Origin: Eledone cirrhosa
Taxonomy: Eukaryota
Length of the DNA: 64,000 bases
Reading direction: 5' to 3'
Assembly: GCA_964016885.1 (NCBI GenBank)
Contig: OZ024741.1
Location: forward strand, 365,862,001 to 365,926,000
Positions 14,518 to 16,880 of this stretch are shown here, piece by piece. Below the pieces are notes generated by a model. It was not told where the DNA came from, did not search any database, and worked only from the letters and a program-made list of their open reading frames with translations. Within the stretch, counting starts at the first letter, position 1; every line of letters begins with the position of its first letter. A program made the position numbers and the translations under genes.

Positions 14518-16880
14518 TTGGAATAAATGCTCTGAAATAGCGATATATATGTGAATATAGACATAGAATATTCGAAAATATTCTGTATGTTTATAATAAA
14601 CATTTTGAAGACCTAATCGCTATAGAATAGAATACGTCACGTATTACAATTAGATTCTCGATAAAAGCAAGGGAAGTAATCTACGCGTTTCATTCTCGTT
14701 AGAAATCATCAGGACTACATATCCAGTGCTTTTATCGAGAATGACACAGCTAGAGACTTATAGAATACTTAGCTGTGTACAGGAACTGGTTTGAAAGAGC
14801 GGTTGCCGGTCCGGCAGAAATTAGAAATTGGAATAAATGCTCTGAAATAGCGATATATATGTGAATATAGACATAGAATATTCGAAAATATTCTGTATGT
14901 TTATAATAAACATTTTGAAGACCTAATCGCTATAGAATAGAATACGTCACGTATTACAATTAGATTCTCGATAAAAGCAAGGGAAGTAATCTACGCGTTT
15001 CATTCTCGTTAGAAATCATCAGGACTACATATCCAGTGCTTTTATCGAGAATGACACAGCTAGAGACTTATAGAATACTTAGCTGTGTACAGGAACTGGT
15101 TTGAAAGAGCGGTTGCCGGTCCGGCAGAAATTAGAAATTGGAATAAATGCTCTGAAATAGCGATATATATGTGAATATAGACATAGAATATTCGAAAATA
15201 TTCTGTATGTTTATAATAAACATTTTGAAGACCTAATCGCTATAGAATAGAATACGTCACGTATTACAATTAGATTCTCGATAAAAGCAAGGGAAGTAAT
15301 CTACGCGTTTCATTCTCGTTAGAAATCATCAGGACTACATATCCAGTGCTTTTATCGAGAATGACACAGCTAGAGACTTATAGAATACTTAGCTGTGTAC
15401 AGGAACTGGTTTGAAAGAGCGGTTGCCGGTCCGGCAGAAATTAGAAATTGGAATAAATGCTCTGAAATAGCGATATATATGTGAATATAGACATAGAATA
15501 TTCGAAAATATTCTGTATGTTTATAATAAACATTTTGAAGACCTAATCGCTATAGAATAGAATACGTCACGTATTACAATTAGATTCTCGATAAAAGCAA
15601 GGGAAGTAATCTACGCGTTTCATTCTCGTTAGAAATCATCAGGACTACATATCCAGTGCTTTTATCGAGAATGACACAGCTAGAGACTTATAGAATACTT
15701 AGCTGTGTACAGGAACTGGTTTGAAAGAGCGGTTGCCGGTCCGGCAGAAATTAGAAATTGGAATAAATGCTCTGAAATAGCGATATATATGTGAATATAG
15801 ACATAGAATATTCGAAAATATTCTGTATGTTTATAATAAACATTTTGAAGACCTAATCGCTATAGAATAGAATACGTCACGTATTACAATTAGATTCTCG
15901 ATAAAAGCAAGGGAAGTAATCTACGCGTTTCATTCTCGTTAGAAATCATCAGGACTACATATCCAGTGCTTTTATCGAGAATGACACAGCTAGAGACTTA
16001 TAGAATACTTAGCTGTGTACAGGAACTGGTTTGAAAGAGCGGTTGCCGGTCCGGCAGAAATTAGAAATTGGAATAAATGCTCTGAAATAGCGATATATAT
16101 GTGAATATAGACATAGAATATTCGAAAATATTCTGTATGTTTATTCTTTTATCGAGAATCTAATTGTAATACGTGACGTATTCTATTCTATAGCGATTAG
16201 GTCTTCAAAATGTTTATTATAAAGATACAGAATATTTTCGCATATTCTATGTCTATATTCACATATATATCGCTATTTCAGAGCATTTATTCCAATTTCT
16301 AATTTCTGCCGGACCGGCAACCGCTCTTTCAAACCAGTTCCTGTACACAGCTAAGTATTCTATAAGTCTCTAGCTATGTCATTCTCGATAAAAGCACTGG
16401 ATATGTAGTCCTGATGATTTCTAACGAGAATGAAACGCGTAGATTACTTCCCTTGCTTTTATCGAGAATCTAATTGTAATACGTGACGTATTCTATTCTA
16501 TAGCGATTAGGTCTTCAAAATGTTTATTATAAACATACAGAATATTTTCGAATATTCTATGTCTATATTCACATATATATCGCTATTTCAGAGCATTTAT
16601 TCCAATTTCTAATTTCTGCCGGACCGGCAACCGCTCTTTCAAACCAGTTCCTGTACACAGCTAAGTATTCTATAAGTCTCTAGCTGTGTCATTCTCGATA
16701 AAAGCACTGGATATGTAGTCCTGATGATTTCTAACGAGAATGAAACGCGTAGATTACTTCCCTTGCTTTTATCGAGAATCTAATTGTAATACGTGACGTA
16801 TTCTATTCTATAGCGATTAGGTCTTCAAAATGTTTATTATAAACATACAGAATATTTTCGAATATTCTATGTCTATATTC
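14518..16880. mobile_element. Retrozyme family R1: 310-bp tandem array with internal inversion
   Basis: ttggaataaatg recurs at 14518, 14828, 15138, 15448, 15758, 16068; orientation flips at ~16145 (about 5.2 + 2.4 monomers); both ends in (TA)n; one hammerhead per full monomer. Confidence 0.92.
16405..16447 (+). ncRNA. Minimal type-I hammerhead of R1 (also 16715-16757 +; 14676-14718 - and four more at +310 steps)
   Basis: gtagtc-CTGATGA-tttctaacgagaat-GAAA-cgcg-TA-gattac: 6-bp stem I, stem II, palindromic ACGCGT stem III, GUA cleavage triplet. Confidence 0.93.

What the first reader, a model, noticed from the sequence alone, without database searches (positions are those of the whole stretch)
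14518..16880. Young 310-bp retrozyme concatemer with an inversion
About 7.6 monomers, identical by eye except three changes in the first inverted unit, with seven intact hammerheads; transcription and cleavage would release 310-nt monomers able to circularise. Partial end units fit reverse transcription of a circular or multimeric RNA. The right arm starts 14 nt downstream of a predicted cleavage site.
Basis: partly seen in the sequence, partly recalled or inferred. Interest (0 to 1): 0.8.

Follow-up and report, generated by a model that had tools for sequence, protein, structure and literature searches.

The report
Rolling-circle ribozyme retrotransposon insertion
This is one of roughly 1,600 near-identical insertions in an animal genome, each made of two back-to-back runs of a 310-base unit with a predicted self-cutting ribozyme, and their mutation pattern suggests each was likely copied round and round from a single circular RNA by a Penelope-type enzyme, a route long proposed for these elements.

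Summary
The array is as described: 5.25 units on the minus strand, one T, then 2.37 units on the plus strand, with seven intact type I hammerheads and (TA)n on both sides. It is a non-LTR retrozyme.

The inversion is the family's rule. The genome holds 16,118 hammerhead units at about 1,600 loci. Of 113 sampled insertions 100 are head-to-head pairs, and 96 of those end at two fixed sites a median 37 nt apart, the Penelope-like-element (PLE) 'tail'.

Both arms share one monomer haplotype in 63 of 66 loci (about 10 expected). Variants fixed across all units are mostly A>G. One insertion carries 14 A>G changes in every unit, a haplotype found nowhere else in the assembly. Single-unit variants are sense-biased T>C at 3.7e-4 per base.

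Best reading (inferred): a PLE dimer cuts (TA)n and both ends prime rolling-circle reverse transcription on one, sometimes ADAR-edited, circular monomer.

Not shown: any RNA, cleavage, or the helper PLE. 14 of 102 larger insertions are mosaic.

The parts
14467..14516 (.). (TA)n target microsatellite, left
14517..16144 (-). Left arm: 5.25 identical 310-nt units; 3' end at monomer position 165 (the 'long' or tail end) joined to (TA)n; 5' end at position 88
16145..16145 (.). Head-to-head junction of the two 5'-truncated arms, one extra T
16146..16881 (+). Right arm: 2.37 units; 5' end at monomer position 15, 3' end at position 130 (the 'short' end) joined to (TA)n; three single-unit changes at 16224, 16241, 16376
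16882..17019 (.). (TA)n target microsatellite, right
16405..16447 (+). Type I hammerhead: helix I 6 bp, helix II 4 bp with U-U at its base, helix III 2 bp with a palindromic loop; predicted cut after 16441; a distal 16-bp stem pairs 16381-16396 with 16454-16469
   Evidence: anatomy as in PMC4209133
16715..16757 (+). Type I hammerhead, predicted cut after 16751
14676..14718 (-). Type I hammerhead (first of five on minus)
14986..15028 (-). Type I hammerhead
15296..15338 (-). Type I hammerhead
15606..15648 (-). Type I hammerhead
15916..15958 (-). Type I hammerhead
16500..16611 (+). Monomer positions 59-170: holds both fixed 3' ends and is about 72-83% conserved with an older sister retrozyme; inferred recognition and RT-start module

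Best explanation
The array is one insertion of a young non-LTR retrozyme family, two head-to-head concatemer arms in a (TA)n tract, that was likely made by a Penelope-like element's RT-endonuclease cutting both DNA strands and likely copying one circular 310-nt RNA round and round from each cut end. Shown in sequence: the architecture, the two fixed 3' ends about 37 nt apart, scattered 5' ends, one haplotype per locus, and the two strand-biased mutation classes. Inferred: arrays are transcribed, hammerheads cut as dimers, monomers are ligated into circles, some are A-to-I edited, a PLE dimer starts reverse transcription at monomer positions about 165 and 130, and the two truncated cDNAs are joined end to end.
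For: (a) Family: 4,033 exact and 16,118 degenerate hammerhead matches, reversed-pattern control 0; 805 forward-strand long-end junctions, so about 1,600 loci. (b) PLE signature: 100 of 113 insertions are minus-then-plus; 96 of 100 have one end at 160-175 and one at 112-140, median offset 37 nt; 209 of 210 such ends run into TA repeat. PLEs are described with an inverted 5'-truncated copy and a 30-40 bp tail at one end, and purified PAc cuts and extends both strands from two adjacent internal start sites. (c) One template: arm haplotypes agree in 63 of 66 loci, permutation mean 10.1, maximum 20, among 41 haplotypes. (d) Monomer bottleneck through RNA: fixed substitutions are A>G in 25 of 47 (14 of 36 without L107) against 3 of 106 single-unit ones, p = 2e-7. 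L107 has 14 A>G changes in every unit that covers them, in both arms; a 28-nt stretch with five of them matches 9 times in the genome, all at that locus. 15 of 24 locus-private fixed variants are A>G. (e) Each unit passed through RT: single-unit T>C 22 vs A>G 3 (p = 9e-4), on both chromosome strands (10 and 12), rate 3.7e-4; L1 RT is 2.2e-4 in vitro by the same concatemer logic. (f) No free 5' end: no run-off at the cleavage site (5 of 213); 1 single-unit change at 1,068 cleavage junctions crossed; arms of about 27 and 31 units. (g) Ribozyme kept: core- or pair-breaking changes are 1 of 47 fixed vs 18 of 106 single-unit, p = 0.008.
Against: No RNA, cleavage or circle was observed. 14 of 102 insertions of 3 or more units carry variants in some units only, several once in each arm, which a pure monomer circle does not explain without error hot spots, template switches or later gene conversion. 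In vitro, PAc used unprocessed RNA and did not need its hammerhead. No autonomous PLE sharing the start module was found. 8 sampled insertions have one arm only. 100 of the 111 stretches were picked by their long end, so only the 10 loci of L031-L040 test both ends without that bias (9 of 10). The pairing test is not independent of the editing spectrum, since A>G tends to keep pairs as G-U. A parent of L107 could be missing from this assembly. No ADAR neighbour preference was seen. The window's three changes in one unit are more than the family rate predicts (P about 2e-4).
Confidence: 0.75

Rival explanations
1. PLE machinery copies long uncleaved linear (or multimeric circular) transcripts of existing arrays; monomer circles are rare or only occasionally found new lineages.
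For: 14 of 102 mosaic insertions, with rare variants once in each arm (L052, L077, L116, L129) and a dimer-like pattern in L075. PAc prefers unprocessed RNA in vitro. Arms copied from one homogeneous parent would also agree in haplotype.
Against: Cannot make a private 14-edit pattern identical in every unit with no parent in the assembly. 11 insertions carry locus-private fixed variants. Needs transcripts with up to about 30 uncut hammerheads. Only 7 single-unit variants recur between loci, each twice. Selection on the hammerhead.
Confidence: 0.17
2. A short copy inserts and is then amplified at the DNA level (unequal crossing-over or a DNA circle), as proposed for Xenopus retrozymes, with a later inversion.
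For: Proposed in 10.64898/2026.07.22.740005. A few repeated variants within one arm (L051, L053, L099) look like local exchange.
Against: Single-unit variants follow the element's sense on both chromosome strands, which DNA-level copying would not give. Fixed 3' ends, scattered 5' ends and the same head-to-head geometry at 100 of 113 loci. Arm lengths only weakly related (rho 0.20, p = 0.055).
Confidence: 0.05
3. Assembly or library artefact (fold-back chimeras, consensus-flattened repeats).
For: This locus's junction was not bridged by any read or contig laid (no test).
Against: About 1,600 loci, with different flanks among those read; different haplotypes and junction phases at each locus. 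A public run with very high depth (X4) shows TA loose ends at monomer positions 139 and 170. An older sister family and other PLE-type elements have the same geometry.
Confidence: 0.02

Closest known systems
Metazoan non-LTR retrozymes (Cervera and de la Pena 2020, PMC7229834; Li, Clavereau and Pollet 2026, 10.64898/2026.07.22.740005)
   Same: Tandem non-coding units of 170-400 nt, each with a canonical type I hammerhead, dispersed in thousands. The U-U at the base of helix II matches axolotl HHR_Amex2.
   Different: Those papers propose circle-templated RT and PLE help but, in the text read, give no insertion-level evidence and describe no inverted arms, fixed ends, tail or editing marks; the 2026 paper suggests local DNA amplification. 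Their supplements were not seen.
Penelope-like elements (Craig et al. 2021, 10.1101/2021.04.23.441226; Frangieh et al. 2024, PMC11167929)
   Same: Inverted 5'-truncated partner, 30-40 bp tail on one end, (TA)n preference (described for Naiads), two internal RT start sites, both strands extended.
   Different: No ORF; arms are exact multi-unit concatemers of a 310-nt unit; no homologous pLTR of an autonomous element found; the short end has optional AT-repeat microhomology to the target.
L1 twin priming (recalled, not read here)
   Same: Head-to-head geometry from two target-primed RT events on one RNA.
   Different: Both start sites are fixed, there is no poly(A) tail, and the inverted form is the rule.
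Viroid-like ribozyme circles
   Same: About 310 nt, 60% paired as a circle, hammerhead.
   Different: Ribozyme in one polarity only; genome-encoded; fixed edits sit on the plus strand (A>G 14 vs T>C 4 without L107), giving no sign of an edited minus-strand intermediate.

Membership tests
non-LTR retrozyme | Tandem 170-400 nt units each holding a type I hammerhead | tested here: met
   310-nt units, 7 of 7 intact in the window
non-LTR retrozyme | Canonical type I anatomy (helix I 6 bp, II 4 bp, short palindromic III, full core) | tested here: met
   against the description; Rfam models do not hit it
non-LTR retrozyme | Non-coding, no LTRs | tested here: met
   No ORF of 120 aa or more inside the array; flanks are (TA)n. 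PBS and PPT were not searched for.
non-LTR retrozyme | Dispersed genomic copies | tested here: met
   16,118 units, about 1,600 loci
non-LTR retrozyme | Self-cleavage in vitro | not testable with these tools
   Only indirect: selection on pairing and core
non-LTR retrozyme | Expressed as monomeric circular RNA | not testable with these tools
   No RNA run to lay; indirect evidence from fixed A>G changes
non-LTR retrozyme | Target-site duplication, when present | tested here: inconclusive
   Target is (TA)n, so a duplication cannot be read
PLE-mobilised element | Inverted 5'-truncated copy at the 5' end | tested here: met
   100 of 113
PLE-mobilised element | 30-40 bp tail on one end (two RT start sites) | tested here: met
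   96 of 100, median 37 nt, range 26-55
PLE-mobilised element | AT-rich or microsatellite target | tested here: met
   209 of 210 ends
PLE-mobilised element | Homology to the pLTR of an autonomous PLE | tested here: inconclusive
   None found in 40 loci around a Neptune-like RT, 42 GIY-YIG loci or 60 loci of related non-coding families; only part of the PLE families was seen
autonomous PLE | RT plus GIY-YIG ORF | tested here: not met
viroid-like ambisense circle | Ribozymes in both polarities | tested here: not met
   Hammerhead pattern in one polarity only; Rfam none; other ribozyme classes were not searched by hand

The most novel reading that the evidence does not exclude
A currently active family that records, insertion by insertion, rolling-circle reverse transcription of single circular RNA molecules into the germ line by a PLE dimer priming from both cut ends, with ADAR editing of the circle as its main source of heritable change. 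About 1,600 loci would form a natural in vivo Roll-Seq data set that separates RNA-level edits from RT errors.
Probability: 0.65. Interest if true: 0.86.

Novelty: new variant of a known kind. Interest (0 to 1): 0.76.

Why it matters
How retrozymes move has been a proposal since 2014-2020. Circles were suggested as templates and PLEs as helpers, and a 2026 preprint says the mechanism remains to be elucidated and suggests DNA-level amplification.

This family carries the PLE insertion signature on a retrozyme. Its repeated units let RNA-level changes be told from RT errors at each locus, which makes both proposals directly testable. It also shows A-to-I-type changes being written back into the genome.

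It defines two RT start sites in a 310-nt RNA, a minimal substrate for PLE biochemistry. Eight literature searches found no report of this combination; the library lacks most subscription journals and Repbase, and supplements were not seen.

Tried and rejected

2. No RNA holder was listed; this says nothing about expression.

3. Twenty runs under 18 organism codes hold 70-100% of the words. X1, X2, X3 and X9 each hold one closed 340-nt contig, which a collapsed tandem repeat also gives, so this is not evidence of a circle. Hi-C reads X23 and X24 gave 0 reads, which the tool marks as no test. Cross-sample carry-over is the plain reading; horizontal spread was not tested.

4. Helper search. Other hammerheads with the same loop III: 9 matches, all variants of this family. 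A Neptune-like family with open frames of 950-1,300 aa has a different hammerhead and no homology to the monomer. GIY-YIG loci show no linked homology. A third TA-targeting family shares 26 of 28 nt of the hammerhead but had no contiguous ORF in 30 loci.

5. Rejected: 5' ends mark the cleavage site. Template jumping between linear monomers is disfavoured, as junctions are clean. Mirror copying of one arm from the other is disfavoured, as shared rare variants are mostly not at mirrored places (my reading).

6. Rfam: no match. Earlier scan notes: none.

Full report
Observation. Numbering the monomer from the base after the predicted cut, the left arm (14517-16144, minus strand) covers 5.25 units with no difference. 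A single T follows, and the right arm (16146-16881) covers 2.37 units with three changes in its junction-side unit. Both 3' ends point outward into (TA)n. Each unit has a type I hammerhead with a full core, 6-bp helix I, 4-bp helix II with a U-U base and a 2-bp palindromic helix III, set on a further 16-bp stem (z = -5.75). This is the canonical metazoan form, described as cutting as a dimer and being held off in monomeric circles (PMC4209133, passages). Rfam does not detect it. The host is an animal with a 3.0-Gb assembly; its repeats look octopod-like to me, which is recalled and unverified.

The family. An exact 43-nt hammerhead pattern matches 4,033 times and a degenerate one 16,118 times, with reversed-pattern controls at 0. 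Long-end junctions number 805 on the forward strand; the reverse count is inflated by overlapping matches. That gives about 1,600 loci. I mapped 111 stretches: the window, 10 loci picked by the hammerhead, 40 by any long end and 60 by the 167 end, from the three largest contigs. They hold 113 insertions: 100 minus-then-plus, 12 single arms and 1 of four parts. Of the 12, two were cut by my stretch and proved bipartite, one abuts a gap and one is a fragment of an interrupted arm. In 96 of the 100 pairs one arm ends at 160-175 and the other at 112-140, median offset 37 nt; 209 of 210 such ends run into TA repeat. Among the 10 loci picked without regard to ends, 9 show this.

This is the PLE signature. 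PLE insertions often have an inverted 5'-truncated copy and a 30-40 bp tail on one end, and Naiads favour (TA)n (Craig 2021, passages). Purified Poseidon protein is predicted to be a dimer, cuts and extends both strands, and starts at two adjacent internal sites that delimit the tail (PMC11167929, parts 1-2 of 4). So the inversion is the insertion product, and the helper is likely a PLE. PLE relics lie in the window at 26414-28231 and 36474-38852 (Pfam hits are weak and clade names are my reading of motifs).

One template molecule per insertion. Among insertions of 700 bp or more there are 41 haplotypes, yet the two arms agree in 63 of 66 loci against a permutation mean of 10.1. Variants fall into two classes, as in the Roll-Seq method, where changes in all units come from the RNA and changes in one unit from the RT (PMC11331410, abstract and one section). 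Changes fixed across a locus are A>G in 25 of 47, or 14 of 36 without L107, against 3 of 106 single-unit changes (p = 2e-7); polarity is taken against the window's haplotype. L107 carries 14 A>G changes in every unit that covers them, in both arms, and a 28-nt stretch with five of them occurs 9 times in the genome, all in L107. A-to-I editing is per molecule (established knowledge), so this is best read as one edited monomer copied about eight times. Single-unit changes run at 3.7e-4 per base and are T>C 22 to A>G 3 in the RNA sense on both chromosome strands. That fits RT misincorporation and not mutation after insertion, and it implies the insertions are very young.

Circle rather than linear monomer. 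5' ends are at chance level at the cleavage site (5 of 213) and enriched at 12-30 in the long stem (29 of 213, p = 7e-5). Of 1,068 cleavage junctions crossed, one carries a single-unit change. Arms reach about 27 and 31 units. Fixed variants spare the ribozyme: 1 of 47 breaks core or pairing against 18 of 106 single-unit ones (p = 0.008), though A>G changes keep pairs by nature.

Results against. No RNA was seen. 14 of 102 insertions of three or more units are mosaic; one more flagged case, L107, is a boundary artefact and was dropped from that count. These could reflect multimeric templates, error-prone bases on one template or later conversion. PAc used unprocessed RNA in vitro. ADAR neighbour bias was not seen. 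The helper was not identified. An older sister retrozyme of about 305 nt, with another hammerhead, shares monomer positions 59-170 and beyond at about 72-83% and is also often bipartite, which points to that stretch as the recognition module. One old sister arm abuts a Neptune-like RT head-to-head, a single weak hint.

Comparison. By structure it is a non-LTR retrozyme; cleavage and circular RNA are untested. It works like a PLE passenger but is not an autonomous PLE. Cervera 2020 (passages and Discussion) and the 2020 review (passages) propose circle-templated tandem cDNA and name PLEs as candidates. Li 2026 (parts 1-3 of 5 and a term search) links retrozymes to pLTRs by phylogeny and suggests local amplification. 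The plant retrozyme paper mentions hyperediting only as a possible cause of RNA heterogeneity (passages). Eight searches found no report of retrozyme arrays with PLE tails, inverted arms or fixed editing marks; supplements, including the model figure of PMC7229834 and the preprint's tables, were not seen and could bear on this.

Verdict. A real and young member of a known class, whose family shows an insertion anatomy and mutation record that turn a standing hypothesis into a testable and largely supported one. New variant of a known kind; interest 0.76; best explanation 0.75.

Noticed in passing
L107 = G000:C1:380304800-380313800, positions 390-2768: Insertion with 14 A>G changes fixed in every unit of both arms; the haplotype marker is found only here.
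   Followed up: yes
window 10860-11180 (minus); L033 4372-4730; L185 435-920; L190-L219: Older sister retrozyme of about 305 nt with a different type I hammerhead, sharing the RT-start region and the bipartite TA-flanked layout; 513 matches to one motif.
   Followed up: partly
L206 1197-3024 / L220 1388-3960: A sister-retrozyme arm joined head-to-head, without TA, to a 5'-truncated Neptune-like RT-EN copy; possible chimeric insertion naming the helper clade.
   Followed up: partly
L259, L261, L264, L266-L295: Non-tandem TA-targeting element (2,231 motif matches) with a hammerhead 26 of 28 nt like this one and two 3' ends about 68 nt apart; often in inverted pairs.
   Followed up: partly
window 25391/26108, 30545/30636, 33005/33845, 42728/43239: Other hammerhead-like motifs in minus/plus pairs, likely PLE-type inverted insertions.
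   Followed up: no
window 26414-28231 and 36474-38852; G000:C2:68485491, C4:920517, C8:39891118: Two PLE relics in the window; the second belongs to a family with 25,803 first-look candidates and open frames around 1,000 aa, probably recently active.
   Followed up: partly
runs X1, X2, X3, X9, X20: Near-identical monomer as single contigs in runs coded as different organisms; probably carry-over, unexplained.
   Followed up: partly
L062 576-4586: 276A>G in all units of one arm but only in the last two copied units of the other, as if the template was edited or switched during copying.
   Followed up: no
monomer position 2-3 in L041, L048, L079, L103, L126 and others: A one-base insertion (C in 9 loci, T in 2) two bases after the cleavage site, fixed at lineage level.
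   Followed up: no
L053 2599-2870: 272 nt of unrelated GC-rich sequence between the two arms.
   Followed up: no
window 3-7951 and 50081-51074: A 19-bp satellite of about 418 copies and a 77-bp tandem of about 13 copies of a dispersed-repeat piece.
   Followed up: no
window 14373-14420: A further hammerhead-like motif 100 nt left of the array.
   Followed up: no
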